Shown one piece after another: positions 29,074-48,478 of a stretch of DNA of 64,000 nucleotides; positions within the stretch are counted from its first letter, which is position 1, and the number at the start of each line of letters is the position of its first letter. This DNA is from Promethearchaeota archaeon (lineage in GTDB: Archaea > Asgardarchaeota > Lokiarchaeia > Sigyniarchaeales > SOKP01): NCBI GenBank assembly GCA_048939995.1, contig JBHLOY010000008.1:96001-160000 (forward strand), given 5' to 3'. The notes under the pieces were generated by a model that ran no database searches, was not told where the DNA came from, and worked only from the letters and a program-made list of their open reading frames with translations. Made by a program: the position numbers and the translations under genes.

Positions 29074-29634
29074 ATGTCTGATGTGGAAGAAGAACAACAT
29101 CGGGAATTTATGATTGATGAGGATTTTGACTCAGAGTTTTTTAGAAATATTGAACGTAGATCAAATATATTAAAATGTATCCAATGCGGCACTTGTACTG
29201 CCAGTTGTGAAAGCGGAAGATGGACCGCATTAAAAACACGTTCAATTATCAGGAAAGTTGTGCTAGGAGATTTATCGGTATTAAAGGATCCTGATATTTG
29301 GTTATGCACAACATGTTATCAGTGTTATGAACGATGCCCACGAGATGTAAGGCCTACAGATGTAATTATGGAATTACGAAATTATGCTACTAAGTTAGGA
29401 AACATTTCTCCTAATCATAGAGCGGTTGTTGGATACTTGAAACAATTTGGGCATGCAGTACCCATAAATGATGAGATAAGGAAGCGAAGAGTTGAATTAG
29501 GTTTAGAAGAATTACCTCCTACTGCATTCAAGTTTAAGCAAGAGGGGGATGATAAAGATTTAAAAAATATTGAAGAAAAAATGTTTGATTTACCTCCTGT
29601 TAAGGAGGAAAAAAAGAAAAAAGAGGAGGCATAA
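29074..29634 (+). CDS. hdrC: Heterodisulfide reductase subunit C
   Basis: CIQCGTCTASC, IWLCTTCYQCYERCPR, GHAVP. Confidence 0.95.
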   Translation: MSDVEEEQHREFMIDEDFDSEFFRNIERRSNILKCIQCGTCTASCESGRWTALKTRSIIRKVVLGDLSVLKDPDIWLCTTCYQCYERCPRDVRPTDVIMELRNYATKLGNISPNHRAVVGYLKQFGHAVPINDEIRKRRVELGLEELPPTAFKFKQEGDDKDLKNIEEKMFDLPPVKEEKKKKEEA

Positions 29635-29637
29635 AAA

Positions 29638-30552
29638 GTGGTAAAAGAAAAAACTTTTGCGTTTTTCCTTGGTTGTATCATGCCCAACCGTTATCCTGCG
29701 ATTGAAAAGTCAACCAAATTTGTTATGGAAAAGTTAGGATACGAGATTTTAGACATGGAAAGAGCAACATGTTGTCCTGCACCTGGTGTATTTCGCTCAT
29801 TTAACAAATTTGATTGGATGGTTGCAGCAGCTAGAAATCTTTGTATCGCTGAAAAAATGGATGCTGATATTTTAACAGTATGTAATGGTTGTTTTGGTAC
29901 ACTTCAAGAAGTAAATAAACATCTTAAAGAAAATGAAGATCATAGAGATAAGGTAAATGAGAAGTTGAAAGAAATTGGAGATTATCAGTTTCAAGGAAAA
30001 ATCAACGTCCGACATGTAGCAGAAGTTCTGGGATATGAGGTTGGACCTTGGGGGATTGAAGATTATATTGTAAGGAAACTGAATGCTAAGGCGGCTGTTC
30101 ATTATGGATGCCACTTTTTGAAACCAACAAGGATTCGAGAAATTGAAAGTTCTGAAGGACCAACAATTATCGAAGAATTCGTGGAAGTCTTAGGAATACA
30201 ATCAGTTAGATTTAAAGAACAACTAACGTGCTGTGGCGCAGGAGGAGGTGTAAAAGCATATTCAGGTGATGCAAGTATGACAATTTTTGCGGAAAAAATG
30301 AAGAATATTGATGAAGTGAAGCCAGATTTTATATTAGATATATGTCCCTTCTGTCATTTACAGTTCGAATCGGGACAGGATTACTTAAACAAAAACAAGG
30401 CATGTAATTATGATTACCCTGTAATCCACCTTTCTCAATTAGTTGCATATTGTATGGGCATGGATCAAGAATTTGTGGGTTTACAATACCAATTAATGGG
30501 TCGGGATTATATTTTTGGGGAAGTTGAAGCGAAAAGAGAGGAGGTAGCGTAA
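29638..30552 (+). CDS. hdrB: Heterodisulfide reductase subunit B
   Basis: FLGC, CCPAPG, CNGC, HYGCH, CCGAGGG, CPFCHLQF. Confidence 0.96.
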   Translation: MVKEKTFAFFLGCIMPNRYPAIEKSTKFVMEKLGYEILDMERATCCPAPGVFRSFNKFDWMVAAARNLCIAEKMDADILTVCNGCFGTLQEVNKHLKENEDHRDKVNEKLKEIGDYQFQGKINVRHVAEVLGYEVGPWGIEDYIVRKLNAKAAVHYGCHFLKPTRIREIESSEGPTIIEEFVEVLGIQSVRFKEQLTCCGAGGGVKAYSGDASMTIFAEKMKNIDEVKPDFILDICPFCHLQFESGQDYLNKNKACNYDYPVIHLSQLVAYCMGMDQEFVGLQYQLMGRDYIFGEVEAKREEVA

Positions 30553-32583
30553 ATGACTGTCAAAGAAGAAAAAGTAAAAGAGACAAATGACACTCAAGAG
30601 TCATTAGAGCATGAGGAGAGTGAACCTAGAATTGGAGTGTTTGTTTGTCACTGTGGGCATAATATAGCTGGTACTGTTGATGTTGCTGAAGTTGCAGAAT
30701 ATGCAAAAAGTTTACCGAATGTAGTGAAAGCAGAACATTATATGTTTATGTGTAGTAAACCAGGCGTCCAAATGGTTAAGGATTCAATTAAAGAATTAGG
30801 AGTAGATAGAACTGTGGTTGCCTCATGTTCAAAAAATCAACACGGAAGAACCTTTGCTAATGCCATCCAAGAGATGGGTTTAAACAAGCATCGTCATCAA
30901 CAAGTAAATATTAGAGAATTTGATAGTTGGGTGCATCAAAAAGAAAAGGATAAAGCAACTAAAAAAGCAGAAAGATTAATTGAAGCAGGGGTCAATAGAG
31001 CACGTAAATTAGAAGATGTAGAAACTCGGAGAATTCCTACAACCAAAGCTGCATTAGTTATTGGTGCAGGTATTGCCGGTCTTCGAGCAGCCCACGATCT
31101 AGCAGAATTAGGGATTCCAGTTTATCTGGTTGAGCGAGAATCAACTATAGGAGGACATATGACCCAATTAAACAAGACCTTTCCAACCTTAGAATGTCCC
31201 CAGTGTTCCATATCTCCACTTACTAATGGAGTTGCGAATCATCCATTAATCGAACTTTATACAAATGCTCAAATTAAAGAAGTAGAAGGTTCAATGGGTA
31301 ATTTTGAAGTGGAAATTGAAATCAAACCACGATATGTTAAAGATAATTGTACTTCGTGCGGGGAATGTGCAATTCATTGCCCTGTAGAAGTTCCCAGTGA
31401 ATGGGATAAAGGCATGTCTATAAGAAAGGCTATTTATAAAGCATATCCTCAAGCTATCCCAGCCACATATGTGAGAGACAAGAAAAATTGTATCGAGTGT
31501 AATACATGTATTAATGTTTGTCCAGTTCAAGCTGTTGATTTTTCAATGGAACCAGAAACAAAAAGATTTAAAATAGGCTCTATAGTTGTAGCTACTGGGT
31601 ATGATGAATACGATCCTTCCGAAATTGAAGCTTATCATTATAAACAAGAGGGTTATGAAAATGTTATAACCCAACTGCAGGTAGAACGGATGCTTGCTCC
31701 TGGCTCTTTAACTAACAGTCAAGTACTAAGACCTTCTGACGCTAAAATCCCAAAAAATGTAGTGATGATTCAATGCGTTGGAAGTAGAAATGATCAGGTA
31801 GGGAATATATATTGCACAGGAGTTTGTTGTAAATTTGCGATTAAAAATGCTCGAATTATTAAGGAAATGTATCCTAATTCTAATGTTACCATATGTTATA
31901 TAGATGTAAGAACTCCTGGGTTAAATTTTGAGGAATTATATAAATCCTCCCAGGAAGTGGGAGTACGATTCATAAGGGGAAGACCTTCTGAAATTCTTCG
32001 AGATCCTATTTCTGGAGAATTAAGGGTAATAGTTGAAGATACATTAAGTCAAACACCATTGAAGTTAAAAGCAGATTTAGTAGTATTATCTGCAGCCATG
32101 GTTCCACCAGAAGGAATCGGTCCTTTAGGTTCAAAATTGCATGTTCTTCGATCTAAAGAAGGGTTTTTAAAAGAATTTCATATTAAGATGAATCCCACCT
32201 TAAGCAGTAAAGGTGGTATTTTTTTAGCTGGAGCAATTCAAGGTCCAAAAGACATTTCAGAGTCTGTAGCTCATGCTGGAAATGCTGCTGCATTAGCAGC
32301 TGCTCCCTTAGTAAAAGGATATATTGAAAAAGAAATGTTAATCCCATCCATAGATTTAGACTTATGTGTTAAATGCGGGCTTTGTAAAACTGTATGTGCT
32401 CCTGCTGCGATTGATATAAATGAGGATGGAATCCCTAAGATTAATGAGATAGCATGTAAATCATGTGGTATGTGTATGCCTGCATGTCCAACAGGGGCTA
32501 TTCAATTGTTAAATTTTAGTGATGAGCAACTATTAGATGAAATTGTTGCTGTATCTGGAGGTGTTATATGCGAAAATGAGTGA
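30553..32583 (+). CDS. hdrA: Heterodisulfide reductase subunit A
   Basis: VCHCGHNI, IGAGIAG, KTFPTLECPQC, inserted and C-terminal ferredoxins, QCVGSR, CTGVCC. Confidence 0.96.
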   Translation: MTVKEEKVKETNDTQESLEHEESEPRIGVFVCHCGHNIAGTVDVAEVAEYAKSLPNVVKAEHYMFMCSKPGVQMVKDSIKELGVDRTVVASCSKNQHGRTFANAIQEMGLNKHRHQQVNIREFDSWVHQKEKDKATKKAERLIEAGVNRARKLEDVETRRIPTTKAALVIGAGIAGLRAAHDLAELGIPVYLVERESTIGGHMTQLNKTFPTLECPQCSISPLTNGVANHPLIELYTNAQIKEVEGSMGNFEVEIEIKPRYVKDNCTSCGECAIHCPVEVPSEWDKGMSIRKAIYKAYPQAIPATYVRDKKNCIECNTCINVCPVQAVDFSMEPETKRFKIGSIVVATGYDEYDPSEIEAYHYKQEGYENVITQLQVERMLAPGSLTNSQVLRPSDAKIPKNVVMIQCVGSRNDQVGNIYCTGVCCKFAIKNARIIKEMYPNSNVTICYIDVRTPGLNFEELYKSSQEVGVRFIRGRPSEILRDPISGELRVIVEDTLSQTPLKLKADLVVLSAAMVPPEGIGPLGSKLHVLRSKEGFLKEFHIKMNPTLSSKGGIFLAGAIQGPKDISESVAHAGNAAALAAAPLVKGYIEKEMLIPSIDLDLCVKCGLCKTVCAPAAIDINEDGIPKINEIACKSCGMCMPACPTGAIQLLNFSDEQLLDEIVAVSGGVICENE

Positions 32584-33028
32584 ATGTGAATATATCAAGC
32601 CCGAAGTGCTCGAGAAGATGGAAAATATTGTAGTGTTTATGTGTAATGAGTGTGGCCAAGGTTCTGCAAATACAGCTGGAGTAGCTCGAATGGCATATAA
32701 TCCAGCTATACGTATAGTTCGAGTCCAATGTACGGGTCAAGTAGGACCGATCCAAATTATGGATGCATTGAGTAATGGAGCTGACGCAGTTGCATGTGTC
32801 GGATGCTGTCTAGGGGCATGCCATTTCTTCAATGGTAATATTCTTTCAATGCACCGAATTAAGCTTATGAAGAAGTTATTCAAAGAATTAGGCTACAGTG
32901 ACCAAATTATTAACCAATACACCTCACGAGCTGCAGAAGGTGAAACTGCAGTAGGTGATTTTGAAGATATTGTAGAGAGATTAGCAACTGCAATTAGAGA
33001 GGAGGCGACATTCAAAGATGGATGTTAA
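32576..33028 (+). CDS. mvhD: MvhD-type [2Fe-2S] adaptor; start reassigned to ATG 32576
   Basis: FMCNEC, RVQCTG, GC.LGACHF; GGAGGTG upstream and overlap with the hdrA stop. Confidence 0.9.
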   Translation: MSECEYIKPEVLEKMENIVVFMCNECGQGSANTAGVARMAYNPAIRIVRVQCTGQVGPIQIMDALSNGADAVACVGCCLGACHFFNGNILSMHRIKLMKKLFKELGYSDQIINQYTSRAAEGETAVGDFEDIVERLATAIREEATFKDGC

Positions 33029-34253
33029 AGTTTTTCAATTTAATGGATGCAATAAATGCTTTAATGAAACTATTCTATTAAAAGCAGATTCAAACCATAA
33101 AATTGGGTTTGTATCTAATCCTAGGAATTGGAAAGAGGAGAAAATTGATGTTTCTGTAATTACGGGTTATTTATTACCAGAGGATAAAGAGACTTTAGAT
33201 AAAATTATAAGAAATTCAACAAAAATTATTGCATATGGAGATTGTAGCGCTACTGGTGGAGTTTTTGCCTTATCCAATCAACGGGGTCATAAAGTAACAC
33301 CTTTAAGAAAGATGCAGGAAGGTATCTTGAATGTGTATGGTTGTTTGGGTGAAATAGAAGAACTAGAAGCATTAATTATAGGTAAAGATTTACCGAAACT
33401 AAATAATTTATGTATTGTATGTGGAAGAAAGAAAACGTGTGATTATTTAGAAGAAGTCAAGCGTCAAATAGAATTAGATGACGAAGAGAAATGTTTTAAT
33501 GATCTTGGATACTTATGTAATGGATTTATAGCAAAAGAATGTAAAGAACGATGTATCGATTACAATGCGCCCTGTCGTGGTTGCAAACCTATAATTGAAC
33601 GTTCAGGAATCAGAATGCTGGGAATGTTTGGAACTTTAATGGGAAATATTGAAGTCTCTACAGAGCATTCTGAAAAGGGAGCTACAGATAAACTAGCAGA
33701 TAATGATGACGATGTTACGGCAAGTTTACCTGATATCGTTGGTAATTTCTTTAGATTCACGTTATCTACCTCTGGTTTGCCTAAAGGGAGAATCAACTCT
33801 TCAGGAAGCCTATTAGAAGATGTATTTACAGGGAGATTAATAGAAGAATTACCTTTAATTACGGGTTTATTGGGGGGAGATCGCTCGATTTCACTAACGC
33901 TTAAAGTCCTAGAGACCTATGAAGAAGGTAATAATATAGAAGTAAGTGAGACTACAAAACAATATCGAAAGGAATTATTAGAGTTAGAAAATGAATTACT
34001 AACAACAATAGAATCCAAAGATCCAAAAAAATATAAAGAGGTGACTGATAAGATTCGAAAAATTGCTGGTAATATGAATTTATCTAATCTCTACTATGGG
34101 GGATTTAAATCACAAATTAATGAGAATGATAATTTTGAGGACTATAAAACCCATGTTTTTGATGTGGTTGAAGGTACTTATAAAAATGGTTCGATTGAGC
34201 TTACAATTGATTCCATAGGTATTGTAAAAGAAATAAAAATTAAAGAGGGTTAA
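33018..34253 (+). CDS. MvhG-like Fe-S small subunit fused to a degenerate NiFe large-subunit-like segment
   Basis: GCNKC, GDCSATGG, GC, CIVC, GYLCNG, CKERC...PCRGC; C-terminal LEDVFTGRLIEELPLIT. Confidence 0.75.
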   Translation: MDVKVFQFNGCNKCFNETILLKADSNHKIGFVSNPRNWKEEKIDVSVITGYLLPEDKETLDKIIRNSTKIIAYGDCSATGGVFALSNQRGHKVTPLRKMQEGILNVYGCLGEIEELEALIIGKDLPKLNNLCIVCGRKKTCDYLEEVKRQIELDDEEKCFNDLGYLCNGFIAKECKERCIDYNAPCRGCKPIIERSGIRMLGMFGTLMGNIEVSTEHSEKGATDKLADNDDDVTASLPDIVGNFFRFTLSTSGLPKGRINSSGSLLEDVFTGRLIEELPLITGLLGGDRSISLTLKVLETYEEGNNIEVSETTKQYRKELLELENELLTTIESKDPKKYKEVTDKIRKIAGNMNLSNLYYGGFKSQINENDNFEDYKTHVFDVVEGTYKNGSIELTIDSIGIVKEIKIKEG

Positions 34254-34255
34254 AC

Positions 34256-36724
34256 ATGAGTTTTGAATTATTAAAAGTTGAAATTGTAGACGCTGGCCTT
34301 TGTCAAGGATGCGGCTTATGTGCTGGATCGTGTAAGCATATTGAGATGGAAGTAAAGCGTCCATCCCTTAAAGACTACTGTATTTTAGAGAGAGATGGTC
34401 AAGATTGTGGAAAGTGTTATCAGAACTGCCCTCAAGTTATTCAAAAGAAGTTTGAGGAAAAAGAGCCGTTAGCTTTATATTCTTTAAGGAGTAAGAATCT
34501 TGATGTTCTATCTAAAGCTGCTAGTGGAGGCTTTATCACTACTTTTGTTAAGGAACTTTTAGAGAACCAGACACTTAAGAAAATAGTAATGGTACATGAA
34601 GAGGATGAAAAACCAATTGCGGAAATTGTTTCAAATCCTGAAGAAGCGGTTAAAAAAGCAGGAGTAGTTTATGGTAGATCTGGAGTGTTAGAGCGGTTAG
34701 TAGAAATTACAGGCGAATCTTTTGATCAAATAGGTATTGTTGGTGTGCCCTGTGAAATGCGTGGAGCTGCTGAAATAGAAGAGGAAATGAAACGGGACAT
34801 TCTAAAAATTGGATTGTTTTGTAATTCACAAATTCGTACCGAAGAAACAGATAAAGGCTTAGTATGCTCTCCATGCTGTAATGGCTGTCCTTCTGGAGTA
34901 AATGCTCAGGGATATATTTCATTAATACGTCAGGGCAAATATCAAGATGCTGTAAATCTAATTAGAGAAAACAATCCGCTACCATCAATATGTGGTCGCA
35001 TTTGTACTAATGAATGTGAATATGGATGTACTTTAATCGGAGACGACCATCCCGTCGCAATTCGAGAATTAAAGAAGTTTGTAACGGAGTGGGAGATCGA
35101 AAAAGCAAAAAAAGAAGTAAAAAATATACCGAAATTGAAGAAGAATGCTAAAAAAGTGGCAATTATTGGATCTGGTCCCGCAGGTTTAACTGCGGCTTAT
35201 TATTTGAGAAGAATGGGATATGTAGCAACTATTTTCGAAAAAACCGATCAGACAGGAGGGATGCTACGATTTGGAGTACCCCAATTTCGATTACCTAACT
35301 ATGTCTTAGATTATGACGTTGAAAGGATAATAGAATCTGGAGTTAAAGTAGAACTTAATAAACCATTAGGACATGAAATGACCATTGAGGATTTGAAAAA
35401 TAGTGGTTTTGAGGCAATTTTTATAGCAACAGGTCAATATAAGCCTCGAACCTTGCATTTAGAAGGAGAAGAGCTTCCAAATGTATTTGTGGCAATCAGT
35501 TTCTTAATGGATAGAAAATACCGTTATTGGGAAAATAAAGAAGAATTTAAAGGAAAAACTATAGGGATAATTGGAGGTGGCCCTGTTGCTGTTGATGTTG
35601 CTCAAACTGCATTAAGGTTAGGTGCAGAAAAAATTCATTTAGTAGATATAATGTCAGAAGAACAACTAGAATTAGTTTTAAAGGATATTCCTGAAAATGA
35701 AATGGCTTTCATGCAATATCACTTCAAAACATCCACTTCAAAAATTACACAGAATGATGATGGCAAATTAGTTTTGAATTGTTATAACATAGAATGGGGA
35801 AAACCAGATGAGAATGGAAGGAGACCATTAAATAAAGTACAACAATCCGAATTTGAAATTCCTATTGATAATATCGTAATAGCAGTTGGTCAAGCCGTTG
35901 ATTTTGACCAGATAGATGTTGCTACTAATAACAAGTTAGAAAAAGAACGCAATAAAATCAAGGTAAATGAAATTACTTTTGAAACAAATATTCCAGGAGT
36001 TTTTGCTGGAGGAGACATCATTAACAATTCCAAAGCTGTAGCTATTGCCGCAATAGCACACGGAAAAGAAGCAGCAATTTCAATAGACAAGTACTTGAAA
36101 GGAGAAAATTTAGTAGATGGACGATATAAGAGAGTAAATTCATTTTTCACTGGACCTAATAGACCTCCTAAAGATTACTCTTTGAAACCAGAATCCTTAG
36201 AGGAAGCAACTGAAGAGATAAATTGGTCTTTTGAAGAGATAGATAAGATGTTTAATGAAGATATGGCTTTACAAGAGGCACGTAGATGTTTAAGTTGTAA
36301 TCATTTCTGTTCCCACTGTCAAGATTTCCCAGCAATTTATTCAGATTTAACTGCAGGGGAAATCGGTTCACAAAAGGGATATACTACCGTTGTAGTATGG
36401 ACTGAACGTGGGAAAGAACTTGTTGAACAGGCAATTCAAAAAGGATTGTTTGAACAAGGTAAAGTGAATGAACAAGAACTCAAAACTGCTATCAATTTGA
36501 AATCAAAGAGAGAACTTATGATTTTTAAAAAGACTCCACGACAATATGTATTGGATTATATTACACTTCAAGGGCCTAGTACAATAAATGATATAGCAAA
36601 AAATACTGGAATCGAGGCAAAAAAAGTTAGATATGAAGCACTTCGTTTAGTCCAGTTAATGGAATTAGAAATGAAAGCAGATCAGGATATGGATGAACCA
36701 GTATTTTCAATTATGTGTGATTAA
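34256..36724 (+). CDS. Ferredoxin-FrhB protein with inserted GltD/SudA-type flavoprotein and C-terminal wHTH
   Basis: CQGCGLC/CGKCYQNCP; FrhB SGG, GVPCE, IGLFC; then CCNGCP, CGRICTNECEYGC, GSGPAG, GGGP, FAGGD, EARRCLSC; then FrhB CSHCQD...SDLTAGEIGSQKGYTTVVVWTERG. Confidence 0.88.
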   Translation: MSFELLKVEIVDAGLCQGCGLCAGSCKHIEMEVKRPSLKDYCILERDGQDCGKCYQNCPQVIQKKFEEKEPLALYSLRSKNLDVLSKAASGGFITTFVKELLENQTLKKIVMVHEEDEKPIAEIVSNPEEAVKKAGVVYGRSGVLERLVEITGESFDQIGIVGVPCEMRGAAEIEEEMKRDILKIGLFCNSQIRTEETDKGLVCSPCCNGCPSGVNAQGYISLIRQGKYQDAVNLIRENNPLPSICGRICTNECEYGCTLIGDDHPVAIRELKKFVTEWEIEKAKKEVKNIPKLKKNAKKVAIIGSGPAGLTAAYYLRRMGYVATIFEKTDQTGGMLRFGVPQFRLPNYVLDYDVERIIESGVKVELNKPLGHEMTIEDLKNSGFEAIFIATGQYKPRTLHLEGEELPNVFVAISFLMDRKYRYWENKEEFKGKTIGIIGGGPVAVDVAQTALRLGAEKIHLVDIMSEEQLELVLKDIPENEMAFMQYHFKTSTSKITQNDDGKLVLNCYNIEWGKPDENGRRPLNKVQQSEFEIPIDNIVIAVGQAVDFDQIDVATNNKLEKERNKIKVNEITFETNIPGVFAGGDIINNSKAVAIAAIAHGKEAAISIDKYLKGENLVDGRYKRVNSFFTGPNRPPKDYSLKPESLEEATEEINWSFEEIDKMFNEDMALQEARRCLSCNHFCSHCQDFPAIYSDLTAGEIGSQKGYTTVVVWTERGKELVEQAIQKGLFEQGKVNEQELKTAINLKSKRELMIFKKTPRQYVLDYITLQGPSTINDIAKNTGIEAKKVRYEALRLVQLMELEMKADQDMDEPVFSIMCD

Positions 36725-38379: not shown

Positions 38380-38462
38380 TAATTTTCTTATCTTTTACAT
38401 TTTACTTTTACATTATATTTAAAATTATTATTAGCTTAAACAATCATAAAGTTATAATCCAA
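38380..38462 (+). repeat. Upstream element copy 1 (with 13-nt duplication)
   Basis: Matches 41035-41104 except a TTACTTTTACATT insertion and one substitution. Confidence 0.9.
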
Positions 38463-38475
38463 TCTAACTATAATT

Positions 38476-40962
38476 ATGTCCCATACAGAATCTAAAGAAC
38501 TAATTCAGGCTAAAAAACTCATTGATGTATCTAAACTCGATGAAGCGGACCACATTATTAAGAATTTTGAGGAAAAGGGAGGTCTAACTCTTCGTGATAT
38601 AGTTTTCTGTCATTTTCTCAAGTGTAAGCTCTTAAGTGAGCGTGGATTAAATGAGGATGTTGTCAAACTTGCCGAAAAAACGCTTAAAGAGAGTTCAGGA
38701 TTAGAAAGAAACCTTTTGTTGGTTGATATTTTACTAGAAATGGCTTTAGCCCTATTACGCATTGCTAAAGTAGATAAAGCTTTCGAAATCATTAAACAGG
38801 GAGAAGACCTGCTAAAAACTTTAACACAAGAATTATCCACAGAGTATAAGCAAAGAGAGGCATATACAGCCTTGCTTAAAGGATGGGCTTATGATCAAAA
38901 ATCAGATATTGATCAGGCAATAAAACAGTTTGAACTCAGTTTATCATTAAGAGAAGAGCTTGGGAATAAAAACGAAATTGCTCAAACACTTGTAGGAATT
39001 GCCCACATGTGTATAAAAAGAGGTGAATTTGACCGTGCTTTAAAATCCCTGGAGCAAGGAGTGGTTTTAGCCGAGGAAGGTGGTAATAAAGGGATTCTAG
39101 GACAATATTTATATTATATGGGAAGGGTACATACATTTAAAGTTGATTTTGACCGTAGTAGTATGTATATAAACCGTAGCTTGGCAATTTATAATAACCT
39201 TAATAATAAATTTATGATATCAAGGAATCTTGACACTCTAGGGGAAATTTATATGATTAAGGGGGAAATTGATAATAGTATTAGATTTTATGAGCAAAGT
39301 TTAGAACTTCTAAAAGAAATTAACAATAAATTAATCATGAGTGATGTTTATAATAGTTTAGCTTTCTGTTACAAAATGAAAGGAGAATTAAATCGTGCTT
39401 TAGAATGTATAAAACAGGCTATGGCACTAACTAATGAGTTAGGAACTTATAATCCCTATAATAATCATTTTCTAGTTCAAATATTTATTGATAAGGGTAA
39501 TCTTGAACAGGCACAAATTTCACTTCTTGAATTCGAACAATTGAATAGTCAATACAAAAGTAGATTTATTAATTCAATGTATCTTCTTGATAAGGCTTTA
39601 CTTTTGAAAACTAGTCCTCGAGCTCTCAATCGTGGTAAAGCTGAAGAAATACTAAAGCAACTCCTTGAAGATGGAAATTTATATTATGACATAAATTTAG
39701 AAGTATTACTTAATTTATGTGAACTACTCCTAACTGATTTAAAAGTAACTAATGAAACAGAGATTTTAGAAGAGATTAAACCCCTTATTATCCAACTGTT
39801 AGATTTCTCTGAAAAGTCTCTTTCTTTTTGGGTTTTTGGGGAAACTTGCCTTCTACAAGCAAAATTGGCATTAATAGAATTGAATTTGGAAGAAGCTCGA
39901 CGATTAATGACTAAAGGACAACAAATTGCAGAAAAATATGGACTTATTCAACTAGCTATAAAGATTTCAAACGAACATGATCAAATGCTTAAAAAACTAG
40001 AACTTTGGGAAAAAATAAAGGCCTCGAAAGCGCCCTTAGCAGAGCGTATAGAATTATCCCGCTTAAACGAACAAATGGAGGGAATGGTAAAGAGTCGCAT
40101 AGATAAAATCCCAAAATTAGTAGCTGAACAGCCAGTTTTACTTACTATCATGTCAAGACAAGGGAGTATATTATTATCAAATCCATTTACTGCTGATGTA
40201 AAAATTGACAGCACTTTTTTTAGTGAGTTTCTATCCTCTTGTAATACCTTTTGCGACCAAGTTCTTTCCGAATCATTTGATCGTGTGAAATTCGGTCAAC
40301 ATACAGTGCTTATCACAGCAATCGATTCTTTCTCTGTATGTTATATGTTCCAAGGGCAGACATACAGTGCCCGACAGAAATTACTCCACTTTTCAGATGC
40401 TATTAGAAAAGAACCTGAAATTATGAACAAACTAAAAGATGCTAATAGCAAGAATATAGAGATAAATGTAAATGAAACAGCATCTCTTGAGGAATCGATT
40501 TATGAAAGTTTTCTTTCAGATTCAGAGCAATTTCAGATGCCATTTAAGGCTTATGAAGGAGATGAATCATTTATTTTTGTCAGTTATTCTCACACTGACA
40601 GACTGCAGGTATATCCCATAATTGATTACCTTAATAAGACCGGCATAAACGTTTGGTATGATGAAGGAATTCATGTAAGCGAAGATTGGAAAAACATAAT
40701 TGCGGATAATTTGGAGCGATGTAGTGCTTTTCTCATATTCATTACACCACATATAATTGATTCAGTAACAGTAAACAAGGAGATTAGCTTCGCCTTAAAA
40801 AAGCAAAAACCATTTTTTAGTATATACCTAAAAGAGACTCAATTGCCCAGTAAATTAGAATTTGAGATTGGAGATATTCAACACATGAAAAAATATCTTA
40901 TGTCTGAAACCGAATTTTATAATAAATTAAATTCCTTATTTGGGAGAGTTTTAAAAAAGTAG
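38476..40962 (+). CDS. TPR - longin-like - TIR domain protein
   Basis: TPR array; PVLLTIMSRQGSILLS...FSEFLSS; TIR FIFVSYSHTD, VWYDE, VNKEISFA. Confidence 0.85.
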   Translation: MSHTESKELIQAKKLIDVSKLDEADHIIKNFEEKGGLTLRDIVFCHFLKCKLLSERGLNEDVVKLAEKTLKESSGLERNLLLVDILLEMALALLRIAKVDKAFEIIKQGEDLLKTLTQELSTEYKQREAYTALLKGWAYDQKSDIDQAIKQFELSLSLREELGNKNEIAQTLVGIAHMCIKRGEFDRALKSLEQGVVLAEEGGNKGILGQYLYYMGRVHTFKVDFDRSSMYINRSLAIYNNLNNKFMISRNLDTLGEIYMIKGEIDNSIRFYEQSLELLKEINNKLIMSDVYNSLAFCYKMKGELNRALECIKQAMALTNELGTYNPYNNHFLVQIFIDKGNLEQAQISLLEFEQLNSQYKSRFINSMYLLDKALLLKTSPRALNRGKAEEILKQLLEDGNLYYDINLEVLLNLCELLLTDLKVTNETEILEEIKPLIIQLLDFSEKSLSFWVFGETCLLQAKLALIELNLEEARRLMTKGQQIAEKYGLIQLAIKISNEHDQMLKKLELWEKIKASKAPLAERIELSRLNEQMEGMVKSRIDKIPKLVAEQPVLLTIMSRQGSILLSNPFTADVKIDSTFFSEFLSSCNTFCDQVLSESFDRVKFGQHTVLITAIDSFSVCYMFQGQTYSARQKLLHFSDAIRKEPEIMNKLKDANSKNIEINVNETASLEESIYESFLSDSEQFQMPFKAYEGDESFIFVSYSHTDRLQVYPIIDYLNKTGINVWYDEGIHVSEDWKNIIADNLERCSAFLIFITPHIIDSVTVNKEISFALKKQKPFFSIYLKETQLPSKLEFEIGDIQHMKKYLMSETEFYNKLNSLFGRVLKK

Positions 40963-41034
40963 ATTCTACTTAATAGAGGTTGTAAAATAAATATATATAT
41001 CTTAAATTTAATTTTTTTATCATGATTTTTTTTG

Positions 41035-41104
41035 TAATTTTCTTATCTTTTACATTATATTTAAAATTATTATTAGCTTAAACATTCATAAAGTTATAAT
41101 CCAA
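41035..41104 (+). repeat. Upstream element copy 2
   Basis: TAATTTTCTTATCTTTTACATTATATTTAAAATTATTATTAGCTTAAACATTCATAAAGTTATAATCCAA, near-identical to 38380-38462. Confidence 0.9.
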
Positions 41105-41138
41105 ATTTTTCTGAAATTAGTCTTACCTGGCTAAGTAT

Positions 41139-43082
41139 ATGTCTAATTCAGAATCTAAGGTACTCACTCAGGCAAGAAGACTTATCGAAGAGTGTAAACT
41201 CGATGAAGCCCTCACACTCTTGAATAGTTACGAGCAAGAGGAAGGGCTCAGCCATCATGATAGAGCTTCTTGCCATTTAGTTCAATGTCAAATTTTTTTT
41301 TGGCAAGGAAAGCTCAAAGAGCTTATTAAACGTACTGAACATATATATAGAGAAAGCGCAGAATGGGAAAGTAATCTCTTTATAATCGACAACTTACTTA
41401 TAATGACGCATGTACAAGTAAAGCTTTTTAGATTTGATATAGCTTTTAATTTGATTAAGCAAGGAGAAGAACTTATAAAGTCACTTCCACAAGAATTAAA
41501 AGAAGCCTGCAAGCAAAGGGAAGCTTATCTAGCTTTTATAAAAGGATATTATTACAACTTAACCAGAGATTTAGATACCGCAGATCTTGCACTGAAATAT
41601 TTGGAGCGCAGTTTAGTACTTCGAGAAGAATTGGGGATTCAGGCTGAAATTTCACAGTCTCTTGGTCAGATCGCATGGAATCTATTGATTTTTAAAGGTG
41701 AGATGGATCGTGCCTTAAAATATTCCGAGCGAAGTCTATCTCTTGCTAAAAAAAGTCGCAGAAAGTATTACGTCGCATCTAGTCTTCAGATTATGGCGCT
41801 TATTTATGCTTCTCTAGGGGAAATAGATCATTGTATAAGAATTAATGAGCAAAGTTTAGAATTTTTCAATGAACTTAGCAATAAATATGGTATGGCATTA
41901 GTTCTTAACAATTTAAGTTATGATTATAACTTGAAAGGAGATTCAGATCGTGCATTAGAATGTATAGAACAAGCTATAGAACTAAACCGTGGTTTGGGGG
42001 ATCTAAGTCAACTAACTAATAACCACGACTTTTTAATTGAAATATTAATAGATAGGGGAGATCTTGAGCGAGCACAGCAAAACCTTAACAACTTAGAGCA
42101 TTTGACGCGTCAATTAAAAAATAAGCAATGGGACTTAATGTATCTTCTTGATAAGGCTTTATTATTGAAAACAAGTCTTAGAGCACGCGATCGAGGCAAG
42201 GCTGAAGAATTATTGATACAACTCCTTGAAAATGAGAATAAAACTCATGATCTTAGTTATAGAGTTTTAATTAATTTATGTGAATTGCTCCTAACTGAAT
42301 TACGAATAACTAATGATCTTAGTGTGTTGGATGAGTTAAATCAATTCCTTGGTCAACTGTTAGAACTTGCTGAAAAATCGCATTCGTACTGGATTATGGG
42401 AGAAACTTATCTTTTACAAGCTAAATTGGCATTAATAAAGTTGGACTTTAAAAAGGCAAGAAAATTACTGACCCAAGGACAGCAAATTGCTGAAAAGTTT
42501 GGACTAAACGTGTTAGCAATTAATATCTCAGATGAACACGATGAATTACTTATTCAATTAGAAAGATGGGAGATATTAAAAAAATCTAAAGCATCTTTAG
42601 CTGAACGTATGGAATTATCACATTTAGGTGAAGATATAAATCGAATGGTTAAAAAGCGTAGAATAGAGTTCAAAGAACCCGTTAATGAACTTCCAGTCGC
42701 AATTTTTATTATAGCGGAAAGTGGGTTGCCTGTTTTCACTCAATTGTTTGAAGTGGGATTATCTTTCGAAAATCATCTTCTTGGAGGATTCTTAACAGCT
42801 TTTAATGCATTTAGTGATGAATTTTTTTCTGAAGGCCTAGATCGTGCTACTTTTGGACAATATACCTTATTAATGAAGTCTATCACACCCTTCTCAATAT
42901 GTTATCTTTTTAAAGGGAAAACTTACTCTGCTAAAAAAAGAATAAATTTATTTATAGAAAGTCTAATTAAGGAACAACAAATTTGGCAAACATTTTGCGA
43001 ATTTTACAACGTAAATCGAGTAGTTCAATTAAAAGATCTTCCATTATTAAAAGTTCTGATAAAAAAAGTTTTTAAAGATTGA
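41139..43082 (+). CDS. TPR - longin-like protein, TIR-less paralog of 38476
   Basis: Shared blocks MYLLDKALLLKTS, NLCELLLT, GET.LLQAKLALI; PVAIFIIAESG...LLGGFLTAFNAFS. Confidence 0.85.
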   Translation: MSNSESKVLTQARRLIEECKLDEALTLLNSYEQEEGLSHHDRASCHLVQCQIFFWQGKLKELIKRTEHIYRESAEWESNLFIIDNLLIMTHVQVKLFRFDIAFNLIKQGEELIKSLPQELKEACKQREAYLAFIKGYYYNLTRDLDTADLALKYLERSLVLREELGIQAEISQSLGQIAWNLLIFKGEMDRALKYSERSLSLAKKSRRKYYVASSLQIMALIYASLGEIDHCIRINEQSLEFFNELSNKYGMALVLNNLSYDYNLKGDSDRALECIEQAIELNRGLGDLSQLTNNHDFLIEILIDRGDLERAQQNLNNLEHLTRQLKNKQWDLMYLLDKALLLKTSLRARDRGKAEELLIQLLENENKTHDLSYRVLINLCELLLTELRITNDLSVLDELNQFLGQLLELAEKSHSYWIMGETYLLQAKLALIKLDFKKARKLLTQGQQIAEKFGLNVLAINISDEHDELLIQLERWEILKKSKASLAERMELSHLGEDINRMVKKRRIEFKEPVNELPVAIFIIAESGLPVFTQLFEVGLSFENHLLGGFLTAFNAFSDEFFSEGLDRATFGQYTLLMKSITPFSICYLFKGKTYSAKKRINLFIESLIKEQQIWQTFCEFYNVNRVVQLKDLPLLKVLIKKVFKD

Positions 43083-44896: not shown

Positions 44897-45247
44897 TTAT
44901 AACCAAGATATAATTTTCGAATTGGCAACCAATAGATCAACAAGATTTGCATACTCGATTTTTGCAATTTTATCCAAAATGAAATTTGGATTAATTCCAC
45001 GAGCTTTAAGATCGGGTTGAAGAATATAAAAAGAAATAGGTAAATTAATAAGATCTAATAAATGTTTACTCATTTTAGACTTTTTGGTAAGTCCGATAAC
45101 CGCGTCATGCATAAATACGAATGTGATATTTACTCCTAATTCTTTTTGTTCTTTTATGATATTTATCATTTTCTTTAATGGTCTGTAATTGTTTAAACTA
45201 TAGCCAAAAAGATAAATAATGTTTTTAGACTTTTCCAATTTCGCCAC
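44897..45247 (-). CDS. dsrH: DsrH/TusB-like protein (copy 2)
   Basis: FMHDAV, DLKARGI, IISW; paralog of 28148. Confidence 0.87.
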   Translation of the reverse strand: MAKLEKSKNIIYLFGYSLNNYRPLKKMINIIKEQKELGVNITFVFMHDAVIGLTKKSKMSKHLLDLINLPISFYILQPDLKARGINPNFILDKIAKIEYANLVDLLVANSKIISWL

Positions 45248-45253
45248 CTCCTC

Positions 45254-45619
45254 CTAATATTTAAAACAAAAATCATTATCTAACAATAATTTAGAAATCG
45301 TCTTATAATCTATAATTTTTAAATGTTCATAAGGAATTAAGTCATTTTTATCAAGATCTAATGCTATAAGATCTTCAAGTGCAACAAGAATATGAAGTTC
45401 CGATAATTCGATTAACCTAATCATATCATCAAGCGAATCCATATTCAAATCCGAAGGGTTTACATTTTTATTAAGAAATAAAATCGCATCTCCTAAAAAT
45501 AGCACTTGGCAAGTCTCAATATCTCCCATACTTAAAATTCCAGCAGCTAGTCTTATTGACTCAACCGCAGAATTTTTTCCAAAGGGAGAATCTTCACAAA
45601 TTATCAAAATAGAAGTAAT
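45254..45619 (-). CDS. dsrF: DsrF/TusC-like protein (copy 2), probable ATT start
   Basis: SPFGKNSAVESIRL, FLGDA; ATT just after GAGGA gives (M)TSILIIC, matching copy 1 MIKSVVIVS. Confidence 0.82.
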   Translation of the reverse strand: MTSILIICEDSPFGKNSAVESIRLAAGILSMGDIETCQVLFLGDAILFLNKNVNPSDLNMDSLDDMIRLIELSELHILVALEDLIALDLDKNDLIPYEHLKIIDYKTISKLLLDNDFCFKY

Positions 45620-45625
45620 GTATCC

Positions 45626-45994
45626 TCACCTCCCTGGTCCAAAAAATACAACTCGATCAGATTTACCGATTAGTTCTGAAAGTCCACCTAATCCATCCAA
45701 ACATGCTCTTTTGATAAAATCTGATTCCTTTAATCCAGTTATACTTATCCAGGTACTACAAGCAGCTATATCGGCATTACTTTTCTCAATAAATTTTTGA
45801 AGTCTTTTTGGTAAATCTCGAATCGAACTAAATAGTTTTCTATCTTTCTTAATGTTATATACTCCACTACCAAGGAAGAAAATGCCTGCTACTTGATGCC
45901 CTTTTTTAATAATAGCTTCTCCTAGATTAATTGCAGTATCTATTGCTTGATATTTATATGGTTCAGCGGTAATAACAAAAGAAAATTTTAGCAT
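45626..45994 (-). CDS. dsrE: DsrE/TusD-like sulfurtransferase (copy 2)
   Basis: EPYK, IFFLGSGVYN, AACSTW, GLGGL. Confidence 0.85.
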   Translation of the reverse strand: MLKFSFVITAEPYKYQAIDTAINLGEAIIKKGHQVAGIFFLGSGVYNIKKDRKLFSSIRDLPKRLQKFIEKSNADIAACSTWISITGLKESDFIKRACLDGLGGLSELIGKSDRVVFFGPGR

Positions 45995-46038
45995 ATTATT
46001 AAAAATACTTTAATCAATATTTTTAATTTATCATTTTC

Positions 46039-46986
46039 TTATCCAGAGTAGTGTTCTTTTTCTGGATGAATCATATTGGTGAATTGAAAATCAAAAATAT
46101 CTTTAATGCTGAGTTGCTTATTTACATAACCTAGATTATGAAGAATCTGTATAAATCTCATTGTAGACCCTATATACTCTTCAGAAAGTGCAACGCAATA
46201 TTTTGGTGAGATTTTAAGTACAGACAAAACATATTTTGTATTAATAAATCCAAATGATTTTGAAATTATTTTAGCTGCTTTCTTTTTCTTATTTCTCAAC
46301 ATATATGAAGCTTTCTTGTGCTGTTCTAAAAAGGTTTTTCCTATATTATGATGATCTTTAATTAAGTTTTCATGAAAGAATATCCCATAGCTTGGATTAT
46401 AAGACCATAATTCAAATGGGGGGATTATAATATGAGCGTTTAGTATAGTTGAAGCAAAAACACTTAACGAAGGAGTTCCAACACCTGCTTCTAACAAATT
46501 CCTTTTCATATCAACAGCAATGAATTCTGCCTGTTCATAATTAACTATTGTTATATCATTCTGTAAATCATGTTGTTTAAGATAATATCTAATTATTACA
46601 TCATGAATAGAACCTTTACTTGGAACACCGACAGCTTTTCCTTTGAATTGAGAGAGTACCATATTCATATCACCATTTGATTCTTCCATTTTTTTGTATC
46701 TCATTTTAGCAATCATTATTGTGCCTTCTACATGACCTCCAGCAACGCATTTAATAGGAACTCCAGAATCGATTCCAATAATAGCAGGAGGGAGCCCCAT
46801 ATATCCAATATCTAACCTACCTTCTCTAAAAGCTTTAACCATTGATGGTCCAGTTCCAAATAAAAACCAATCTATATCGCTTTTAATGTGTTTCTGAAAA
46901 TCTTTTCTTTCCTTTAAAATGAAAGCTGTATGATAAGCAGTGGATAAATAACCAATATTAACCTTATTTTTTTTGATATAAATCAC
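46039..46986 (-). CDS. SsuA/NrtA/THI5-fold substrate-binding-like protein without signal peptide
   Basis: IGYL, GPSMVKAF..G.LDIGYMG, GVPSKGSIHD; no N-terminal hydrophobic segment. Confidence 0.8.
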   Translation of the reverse strand: MIYIKKNKVNIGYLSTAYHTAFILKERKDFQKHIKSDIDWFLFGTGPSMVKAFREGRLDIGYMGLPPAIIGIDSGVPIKCVAGGHVEGTIMIAKMRYKKMEESNGDMNMVLSQFKGKAVGVPSKGSIHDVIIRYYLKQHDLQNDITIVNYEQAEFIAVDMKRNLLEAGVGTPSLSVFASTILNAHIIIPPFELWSYNPSYGIFFHENLIKDHHNIGKTFLEQHKKASYMLRNKKKKAAKIISKSFGFINTKYVLSVLKISPKYCVALSEEYIGSTMRFIQILHNLGYVNKQLSIKDIFDFQFTNMIHPEKEHYSG

Positions 46987-47079
46987 TATTCAATTTTATT
47001 AAAAATTAGAAAATTATGAACTATTATTTAAAATTATAAAGGAAATAATTAATTCTTAAAAGTTATTTTTTAAATATAA

Positions 47080-47391
47080 GTGAATGATATTAAAAAAGAT
47101 TATATGATCCAAATTAGAGTTTGTTTTTTCTCAGTAATAAGCGATTTTACTAATAAGGATGAAATCACATTATCTACTGATGAAAAATCTACTATTAAAG
47201 ATGTCATAGATAAAATAACTCTAAATTTTGGAAGAAAGTTCGGAGAACTTGTATTAAAAACTCCGAATGAGATCAATGATTATATAATCGTTGCAAAGAA
47301 TGGAAAAGATGTCCGTTCCTTAAATAATTTAAAAACATTTTTACAGAATGGTGATGAAATCTCATTTTTACCTGCAATTGCGGGTGGATAG
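47080..47391 (+). CDS. MoaD/ThiS/SAMP ubiquitin-like sulfur carrier
   Basis: NG.D, LQNGDEISFLPAIAGG C-terminus. Confidence 0.92.
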   Translation: MNDIKKDYMIQIRVCFFSVISDFTNKDEITLSTDEKSTIKDVIDKITLNFGRKFGELVLKTPNEINDYIIVAKNGKDVRSLNNLKTFLQNGDEISFLPAIAGG

Positions 47392-47414
47392 AAACAAGGA
47401 ACGAGGAGAGTTTA

Positions 47415-47681
47415 TTAAATTCTTTTAAGTCTAAGCATCCATTCCTTAGGTTTTGAATTAATTGATTTTCCTTTTAAAAGTATTGCTAATTTTTGGCGTT
47501 TACAGCTATCAGGTATATTTTTAAGAGCGGGTTCAAAATCTAATATTACTTCCAAAATTTCATCCTTATTAAGCTTCTCAAGCTCTACTTTTGTATATAC
47601 GAAAGTCATCGGACAAACTTTTCCTCTTATATCCAAAGAATGAACCTTCGTATCTTTTACTTCTTTACTTTTTACCGGCAG
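47415..47681 (-). CDS. tusA: TusA-family sulfur carrier (copy 3); start probably upstream of the track TTG (CTG 47681)
   Basis: LDIRGKVCPMT, EILEVILD; frame open to a CTG overlapping the E1 gene end. Confidence 0.85.
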   Translation of the reverse strand: MPVKSKEVKDTKVHSLDIRGKVCPMTFVYTKVELEKLNKDEILEVILDFEPALKNIPDSCKRQKLAILLKGKSINSKPKEWMLRLKRI

Positions 47682-48478
47682 AATTCTTCACTCCAATAAT
47701 CTACAATTTCTTCAAATTTTTTTGGACTTTCACCACAAGATTTACAATTTTCATTTCGCTGAACTTCAATAAAGCTAAAATTATTTCTAAGAATATCAAT
47801 AAACAGAATCTTATTTGTTATCAAATCTCCAATGTTTAATAGGGCTTTTATTGCTTCATTAGCTTCTATGCAACCAAAAATTCCGGGTGCTAATCCAATA
47901 ACACCAGCTACAGAGCAGGTCATATTTGGGTCCATCCCATCAACATTATCAAAAATACATTTATAACATGTAGTTTTCTTTTCAGGTACAACTGTCATTA
48001 TTTGACCATGAAATCTTAAAACTCCTGCTATTGTGAAAGGAATTTTTAAATGTACACAGGTATCATTAATTAACATCTTTGTTGGGAAATTATCTGAACC
48101 TTCTATAACAAAATCAGAATCCTTTAAAATTTTTCTTGAGTTTTTAGGGGTAATTCGCTCAGTAATAGTTTCTATTTTGCAATCTGGATTAATAGAATTT
48201 AACTTTTTAATAGCACTCTCTGTTTTATACTTATTTATATCTTCAGTATAATAAAGTATTTGGCGATGCAAATTAGAAATTTCCACAACATCATAATCAA
48301 TTAATTGTAAATTTCCTACTCCTGCAGCCGTTAAGTAGTAAGCTGCTGAGGATCCTAAAGCACCTAAACCAATTAATGACACTTTAGAATTTAATAACTT
48401 TTTTTGTCCGATACTCCCTATTTCACTTAAAATTATTTGACGAGAATATCTTTCAATTTGATCTTTAGTTAATTCCAT
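47672..48478 (-). CDS. moeB: HesA/MoeB/ThiF (E1-like) adenylyltransferase
   Basis: RYSRQI, IGLGALG, SNLHRQ, CYKC, TCSVAG, CKSC. Confidence 0.92.
   Translation of the reverse strand: MELTKDQIERYSRQIILSEIGSIGQKKLLNSKVSLIGLGALGSSAAYYLTAAGVGNLQLIDYDVVEISNLHRQILYYTEDINKYKTESAIKKLNSINPDCKIETITERITPKNSRKILKDSDFVIEGSDNFPTKMLINDTCVHLKIPFTIAGVLRFHGQIMTVVPEKKTTCYKCIFDNVDGMDPNMTCSVAGVIGLAPGIFGCIEANEAIKALLNIGDLITNKILFIDILRNNFSFIEVQRNENCKSCGESPKKFEEIVDYWSEEFCR

What the first reader, a model, noticed from the sequence alone, without database searches (positions are those of the whole stretch)
38476..43082. TPR-longin-TIR protein paired with a TIR-less paralog: candidate Asgard immune or signalling module
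Seen: tandem paralogs share TPR and longin-like regions. Only the first has a C-terminal TIR (about 40540-40962), with FVSYSH, WYD and the Glu in VNKEISFA. Known: TIR domains with this Glu are oligomerisation-activated NADases or signal synthases in Thoeris, SARM1 and plant NLRs; TPRs act as sensors in prokaryotic defence proteins. No NTPase (STAND) domain is present. Inference: a receptor in which a longin-like domain links TPR sensing to TIR, with the TIR-less copy as co-sensor or inhibitor.
Basis: partly seen in the sequence, partly recalled or inferred. Interest (0 to 1): 0.72.

Follow-up and report, generated by a model that had tools for sequence, protein, structure and literature searches.

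The report
Asgard TPR-longin-TIR sensor, effector missing
This Lokiarchaeal gene joins a swappable TPR sensor, a eukaryote-type longin domain and an NAD-cleaving TIR domain; its relatives sit in front of an alarmone-synthetase/SLOG gene like an untested Thoeris-type immune circuit, but this genome lacks that gene and the TIR-less neighbour is one of many family copies rather than a dedicated partner.

Summary
Observation confirmed: 38476-40962 encodes TPR array, longin (fold Z 12.4 to VAMP7 longin) and TIR with an invariant Glu769; 41139-43082 is a TIR-less paralog. The 'pair' is not a conserved module. The genome holds 12 TPR-longin paralogs, two with TIR. Of 60 other fusion genes only one is followed by a complete TIR-less copy; 17 are followed by another fusion and 13 by a RelA/SpoT-TPR-SLOG gene with intact synthetase motifs. 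Nine of 18 fusion genomes carry that gene, and its distant homologs flank unrelated TIR sensors. The fusion therefore most likely works like a Thoeris ThsB signal maker. This 98%-complete genome has no such effector, so it is an orphan here or uses an unrecognised one. The neighbour's TPR array is 73-82% identical to a fusion in another genome, its longin only 32-38%. The fusion arose once and was found only in two genera of one family. No activity is shown. The scan noted this fusion and the TIR plus RelA-SLOG pairing earlier on other DNA.

The parts
38476..40962 (+). TPR-longin-TIR fusion gene, 828 aa
38476..40110 (+). TPR/helical solenoid (residues 1-545); variable N-terminal part, conserved last ~100 residues where modules are exchanged
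40120..40533 (+). longin domain plus two trailing helices (residues 549-686)
   Evidence: model pLDDT 81; VAMP7 longin Z 12.4, TRAPP, AP sigma/mu
40540..40959 (+). TIR domain (residues 689-828); Glu769 codon at 40780-40782
   Evidence: Pfam TIR_2 E 2.5e-16; Glu invariant 118/118; dN 0.08-0.10 against dS about 1 or more
41139..43082 (+). TIR-less TPR-longin paralog, 647 aa; residues 1-480 are 73-82% identical to a TIR fusion of genome G045, longin 42681-43079 is of the TIR-less type; break near residue 486 (about 42596)
38405..38462 (+). 58-bp AT-rich upstream element, probable promoter, found before most family genes
   Evidence: 98% identical to 41047-41104; 80-92% matches before homologs in other genomes
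41047..41104 (+). second copy of the 58-bp upstream element, before the TIR-less gene (own transcription unit, inferred)

Best explanation
The 828-aa protein is the sensor and signal-making half of a Thoeris-like circuit of one Lokiarchaeal family. Shown: an exchangeable, fast-diverging TPR array sits on a conserved longin-TIR cassette that arose once; such genes form tandem arrays, often ending in a RelA/SpoT-TPR-SLOG gene. Inferred: a ligand (viral or stress protein) binds the TPR array, the protein oligomerises (longin as hinge or contact surface), the TIR turns NAD+ into an ADP-ribose-derived messenger, the SLOG domain of the effector binds it and switches on a (pp)pNpp synthetase or pyrophosphokinase that arrests growth. 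In this genome that effector is absent, so the fusion is an orphan or signals to an unrecognised receiver. The TIR-less neighbour is an ordinary family member that shares the promoter element and takes part in TPR exchange; it is not a fixed subunit.
For: Glu769 invariant; TIR and longin under purifying selection, TPR much freer. Effector gene 36-67 bp behind a fusion in seven genomes and several metagenome contigs with different flanking genes; SLATT gene follows in one. 9 of 18 fusion genomes carry this effector subtype and 9 of 10 effector genomes carry the fusion (kin not independent). Effector has intact synthetase motifs and a SLOG fold (TM1055 Z 17.2, TRPM2 Z 14.7; SAS1 Z 13.6). Distant effector homologs flank unrelated TIR sensors: TIR-LRR and membrane-anchored TIR proteins, so the link follows the TIR, not the sensor. 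SLOG reads 3'cADPR in type I Thoeris, and type III has several TIRs with one SLOG effector (10.64898/2025.12.03.692087). TPR mosaicism: max chi-square 130, 0 of 1000 permutations.
Against: No effector in this genome by five searches (98.26% complete, 38 contigs), nor found in eight other fusion genomes. The window is not a defence island (Hdr-like cluster, antiporter, CAAX protease). Some effector homologs have no TIR nearby (L061, L115, L121). This TIR departs from the family consensus near the catalytic helix (P733H, E764V, Y765T, R767N). TPR divergence is a trait of the TIR-less family too. No enzyme activity, ligand or antiviral effect is shown.
Confidence: 0.5

Rival explanations
1. Self-contained sensor-executor: ligand binding to the TPR array oligomerises the TIR, which drains NAD+ directly (SARM1 or Avs-TIR logic, with longin in place of SAM or STAND). 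The RelA-SLOG gene is an optional add-on.
For: Half of the fusion genomes, this one included, show no effector, yet the TIR stays under purifying selection; many fusion genes stand alone.
Against: Tight, repeated linkage to a SLOG-bearing effector in several contexts, and the same effector family beside unrelated TIR sensors.
Confidence: 0.2
2. Non-immune signalling: TPR-longin proteins regulate Rab-like small GTPases (longin domains build Rab GEFs such as TRAPP and Mon1-Ccz1; established knowledge), and the TIR adds a nucleotide or protein-contact output to stress or growth control.
For: TIR-less paralogs lie beside small GTPase genes in several loci; 3 of 11 in this genome are within 1.5 kb against 9.5% of large genes; best fold matches are trafficking longins; housekeeping neighbourhood.
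Against: The window pair is 39 kb from the nearest small GTPase; patchy distribution, tandem expansion and module exchange fit conflict systems; the GTPase count is small and not independent.
Confidence: 0.15
3. One reading: the TIR-less neighbour is a dedicated co-sensor or inhibitor that heterodimerises with the fusion.
For: Adjacent and co-oriented, with a 98% identical upstream element suggesting co-regulation; longin domains often heterodimerise (knowledge); the second fusion of this genome also heads an array of TIR-less copies; TIR-less copies exist in fusion genomes and could act in trans.
Against: Adjacency is not conserved: 1 of 60 other fusions is followed and 1 preceded by a complete TIR-less copy; the neighbour's closest TIR-less relatives are unlinked and occur in genomes without the fusion; longins are only 35% identical.
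Confidence: 0.1
4. A relic: after loss of the effector from this locus the fusion is drifting and has no current function.
For: Same locus behind the Hdr-like cluster carries three fusions plus the effector in G260; five departures at conserved TIR columns against a median of one.
Against: Open frame, Glu kept, dN far below dS, departures shared with an 81% identical relative; rank only 27 of 117.
Confidence: 0.05

Closest known systems
Thoeris type I (ThsB TIR + ThsA SIR2-SLOG) and type III (several TIRs + SLOG effector); 10.64898/2025.12.03.692087
   Same: TIR with catalytic Glu; several TIR sensors to one SLOG-bearing effector in relatives; SLATT genes nearby in two loci.
   Different: Sensor is an 800-aa TPR-longin-TIR protein; effector output is a RelA/SpoT synthetase, a term absent from that paper's text and held supplements (its figure 1C list could not be read); no effector in this genome; nothing tested.
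SARM1 and STAND/Avs/NLR-TIR receptors
   Same: Repeat sensor plus C-terminal or N-terminal enzymatic TIR activated by oligomerisation (knowledge).
   Different: No SAM, NB-ARC or NACHT domain; a longin domain occupies the middle.
Eukaryotic longin proteins (VAMP7, TRAPP small subunits, AP sigma/mu, Mon1-Ccz1) and Asgard NPRL2-like longin fusions (10.1101/2020.10.19.343400)
   Same: Longin fold; that paper reports many Asgard longin fusions with signalling domains.
   Different: 7-12% identity; fusion with TIR is not mentioned there (TIR: 0 occurrences); no GTPase or trafficking role shown.
BcTir/BcTpr (10.1101/2023.05.26.542521) and type VIII Thoeris ThsI
   Same: TIR and TPR domains in one defence unit.
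   Different: There TPR lies on the separate effector; here it lies on the TIR protein, with a longin between.
Small alarmone synthetases and toxSAS (SAS1, RelP, CapRel); PADLOC candidate PDC-S33
   Same: The linked effector matches them in sequence and fold.
   Different: Fused to TPR and SLOG and linked to TIR genes; not encoded in this genome.

Membership tests
Thoeris | TIR domain with the catalytic glutamate | tested here: met
Thoeris | Adjacent gene for a signal-responsive effector, in this genome | tested here: not met
   neighbours are an antiporter, the paralog and a CAAX protease; no RelA_SpoT, LSDAT or TPR-S match genome-wide
Thoeris | Adjacent effector with an ADPR-sensing domain, in relatives | tested here: met
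   RelA/SpoT-TPR-SLOG gene directly behind fusions
Thoeris type I | SIR2-SLOG effector | tested here: not met
   linked effector is RelA/SpoT-TPR-SLOG; the one SIR2_2 gene of the genome is an unlinked SIR2-TPR protein
Thoeris | TIR makes an ADPR-derived messenger that activates the effector | not testable with these tools
   needs biochemistry
Thoeris | Protection against viruses | not testable with these tools
   needs infection assays
STAND/Avs/NLR | Central STAND NTPase domain | tested here: not met
   no NTPase family hit; all 828 residues are accounted for by TPR, longin and TIR
SARM1 | ARM-SAM-SAM-TIR architecture | tested here: not met
   TPR and longin instead
Longin fold superfamily | beta-beta-alpha-beta-beta-beta-alpha-alpha fold | tested here: met
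Longin heterodimer GTPase regulators | Longin-longin dimer acting on a small GTPase | not testable with these tools
   only gene-neighbourhood hints for TIR-less copies

The most novel reading that the evidence does not exclude
A Lokiarchaeal family keeps a receptor repertoire with variable and constant parts: TPR sensor modules are shuffled by recombination from a pool of TIR-less paralogs onto a constant longin-TIR cassette, and the receptors signal through an ADPR-type messenger to a SLOG-gated alarmone synthetase; a eukaryote-type trafficking domain has thus been recruited as the activation hinge of an immune receptor in place of a STAND NTPase.
Probability: 0.3. Interest if true: 0.85.

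Novelty: new variant of a known kind. Interest (0 to 1): 0.55.

Why it matters
Thoeris-type signalling is barely documented in Asgard archaea. If the reading holds, it adds a TIR-to-alarmone-synthetase route, a longin domain inside a TIR receptor, and receptor diversification by module exchange in close relatives of eukaryotes. The fusion is confined to two genera, so it is a late, parallel invention and not an ancestor of eukaryotic TIR receptors. The window's own copy is a poor test object because the effector is missing; intact arrays (L053, L051, L033) are the ones to test.

Tried and rejected
Complex prediction of the helical-longin parts of the two window proteins gave no verdict (score 0.02); not used as evidence either way. 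No RNA holder was listed. Pfam and NCBIfam do not detect the longin; a profile comparison with the longin-like tail of the second effector subtype was not significant, so that tail rests on visual likeness and earlier scan notes. PADLOC gave only single-domain TIR and TPR hits. Paper searches for Asgard+TIR+longin, SLOG+RelA+TIR+TPR-S and SLOG+RyR+TIR found nothing; two comparative-genomics papers by Burroughs and Aravind that may describe such architectures were not held, so novelty against them is unchecked. Pseudogenisation of this TIR was considered and found weak. The SIR2 gene and the five other TIR genes of the genome have no recognisable effector beside them (judged from translations). 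No formal test of positive selection on the TPR array was run; pairwise dN/dS did not clearly exceed 1. Neighbour counts include loci fetched through the effector and so overstate its share; the genome-level count (9 of 18) does not. Genome searches scored only the best 3-6 candidates per genome, and many genomes are incomplete.
Full report
Observation. The window encodes 38476-40962 (828 aa) and 41139-43082 (647 aa) on the plus strand, 43% identical over 652 columns. Both hit TPR families; only the first hits TIR_2 (E 2.5e-16, residues 700-802). Glu769 is invariant in all 118 homologs with a residue at that column, as are SYxH, WYDEGI and W738, and it aligns with the helix C glutamate of AbTIR in a weak match. 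Residues 545-686 fold with pLDDT 81 as strand-strand-helix-three strands-helices and match longin domains best: VAMP7 Z 12.4 (rmsd 3.3, 122 aligned), TRAPP 11.6, AP2 11.4, with roadblock proteins lower. No NTPase domain is present. A contig from another study bridges the gap between the genes. Homolog names place the host in Promethearchaeota/Lokiarchaeia.

The pair is not a module. The genome carries 12 TPR-longin paralogs and one shorter relative; two have a TIR. TIR-less members occur across the order, whereas the fusion was found in 18 of 400 Asgard genomes, all in two genera of this family. In a tree of the helical-longin core, 57 fusions form one side of a branch with support 99/98 and the window's second gene lies among the TIR-less ones. 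Among 60 other distinct fusion genes the next gene is another fusion in 17, a RelA/SpoT gene in 13, a complete TIR-less copy in one (the second fusion of this same genome), a truncated family member in one, unrelated in 21, and a contig end in 7; one is preceded by a TIR-less copy (loci fetched through the effector inflate its share). The neighbour's best TIR-less relatives (63-69%) have no fusion beside them, and G250, G256, G008 and G238 showed no fusion at all.

The conserved partner lies elsewhere. In three assemblies tandem arrays of fusions are followed by a 669-aa gene with RelA_SpoT and TPR-S hits. The same gene follows a fusion at 36-67 bp in G004, G017, G020, G049, G226, G249 and G260 and in further metagenome contigs, with four different sets of flanking genes. 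Its model shows a small-alarmone-synthetase domain (SAS1 Z 13.6), a TPR array and a C-terminal SLOG domain (TM1055 Z 17.2, TRPM2 Z 14.7); the synthetase residues R49, K51, S55, K59, D79, Y125, H129, E156, Q158 and R160 are invariant in 23 sequences. Nine of 18 fusion genomes carry this subtype and 9 of its 10 carriers have the fusion; the tenth gene runs off a contig end. Kin are not independent, so the Fisher value (1e-8) overstates. Independent support comes from distant homologs: RyR-tailed forms sit among TIR-LRR, TIR and SLATT genes, and a second Lokiarchaeal subtype with worn synthetase motifs sits beside membrane-anchored beta-helix or multi-pass proteins with a C-terminal TIR. All 15 genomes with that subtype carry that TIR clade and none carries the fusion. 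A few homologs have no TIR nearby. By analogy with type I and type III Thoeris (10.64898/2025.12.03.692087) the SLOG domain is the likely receiver of a TIR product; this step is inference.

This genome lacks the effector. Protein, tblastn, profile and family searches found no RelA_SpoT, LSDAT or TPR-S gene (98.26% complete). The locus behind the Hdr-like cluster is the one that holds three fusions plus the effector in G260, and the closest relatives of the window fusion in the tree lie in effector-ended arrays (L049, L133). The TIR still looks constrained (dN 0.08-0.10, dS about 1 or more), although it carries five departures at conserved columns against a median of one, partly shared with a relative. 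It is therefore an orphan, a stand-alone NADase, or linked to a receiver that I could not recognise.

Variable sensor, constant cassette. Against nine fusions the window protein is 81-87% identical in the TIR, 75-82% in the longin and 21-62% in the TPR core. TPR divergence is also seen among TIR-less paralogs, so it is a family trait. More specific is mosaicism: residues 1-480 of the TIR-less neighbour are 73-82% identical to the fusion of G045, its longin only 32-38%, while that fusion's longin-TIR is 73-81% identical to the window fusion. Informative sites switch from 148:36 to 6:81 at residue 486 (0 of 1000 permutations); three other triplets give the same pattern. A 58-bp upstream element, 98% identical before the two window genes and 80-92% before homologs, and the conserved helices before the longin flank the variable part and could serve as recombination arms (inference). 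The direction of exchange is not determined.

Rivals. A self-contained NAD-draining receptor fits the effector-less half of the genomes (0.2). A non-immune role tied to small GTPases fits the longin fold and the neighbourhood of TIR-less copies (0.15). Decay after effector loss is weakly supported (0.05).

Comparison and novelty. It works like a Thoeris sensor but cannot be filed as Thoeris in this genome, since the effector criterion fails here and no messenger is shown. The architecture and the RelA/SpoT-SLOG effector were not found in the papers searched, with the caveat that two relevant papers were not held and one figure could not be read. Earlier notes of this scan describe the same fusion and the same TIR plus RelA-SLOG pairing on other DNA; I reached the linkage before reading them and treat them as agreement, not as evidence. 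Verdict: new variant of a known kind, interest 0.55.

Noticed in passing
G000:C38:4895-28817 (L031, L032): Second fusion of this genome heads an array of five TPR-longin genes; two more paralogs, two Rab-like GTPases and two related HTH-like 634-644 aa genes lie in the same 25 kb.
   Followed up: partly
L105:2040-11137, L110:832-9602, L114:5579-11183: Toll-like architecture in Lokiarchaeia: signal peptide, beta-helix ectodomain, one transmembrane helix, cytosolic TIR, directly before a RelA/SpoT-TPR-SLOG gene with worn synthetase motifs and a longin-like tail; mutually exclusive with the fusion in the genomes searched.
   Followed up: partly
L075:852-11313: Cluster of a SLATT gene, three TIR-LRR-type genes and a RelA/SpoT-TPR-SLOG-RyR gene on a metagenome contig.
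   Followed up: partly
L127:1-597 versus L120:10445-11605: In G251 the fusion array is followed directly by the gene that follows the effector in G246, suggesting deletion of the effector there too.
   Followed up: partly
L156:2-4505 (G252:C19): The same slot behind the Hdr-like cluster holds a single TIR-less paralog in a genome that uses the membrane-TIR system.
   Followed up: no
window 38476-40962: The longin-TIR part is closer to another genus (about 80%) than to most genomes of its own genus (57-74%), which may mean transfer or a binning effect (genome contamination 5.33%).
   Followed up: no
G000:C7:61345-65400 (L143:11346-15401): 1351-aa SIR2-like plus TPR protein without a neighbouring TIR gene.
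   Followed up: partly
window 29074-36724: HdrABC/MvhD-like electron-bifurcation cluster ending in an 822-aa FrhB-like/glutamate-synthase-like flavoprotein fusion.
   Followed up: no
window 44897-48478: DsrEFH-like trio, ABC substrate-binding protein, MoaD/ThiS-like and MoeB-like genes: probable sulfur relay.
   Followed up: no
L040:7522-8997, L041:5555-6967, L042:5461-6396, L048:4953-6047: The same TIR subfamily (about 40% identity) occurs in other Lokiarchaeal architectures: SWIM-like N terminus, TIR-TIR, LRR-TIR.
   Followed up: partly
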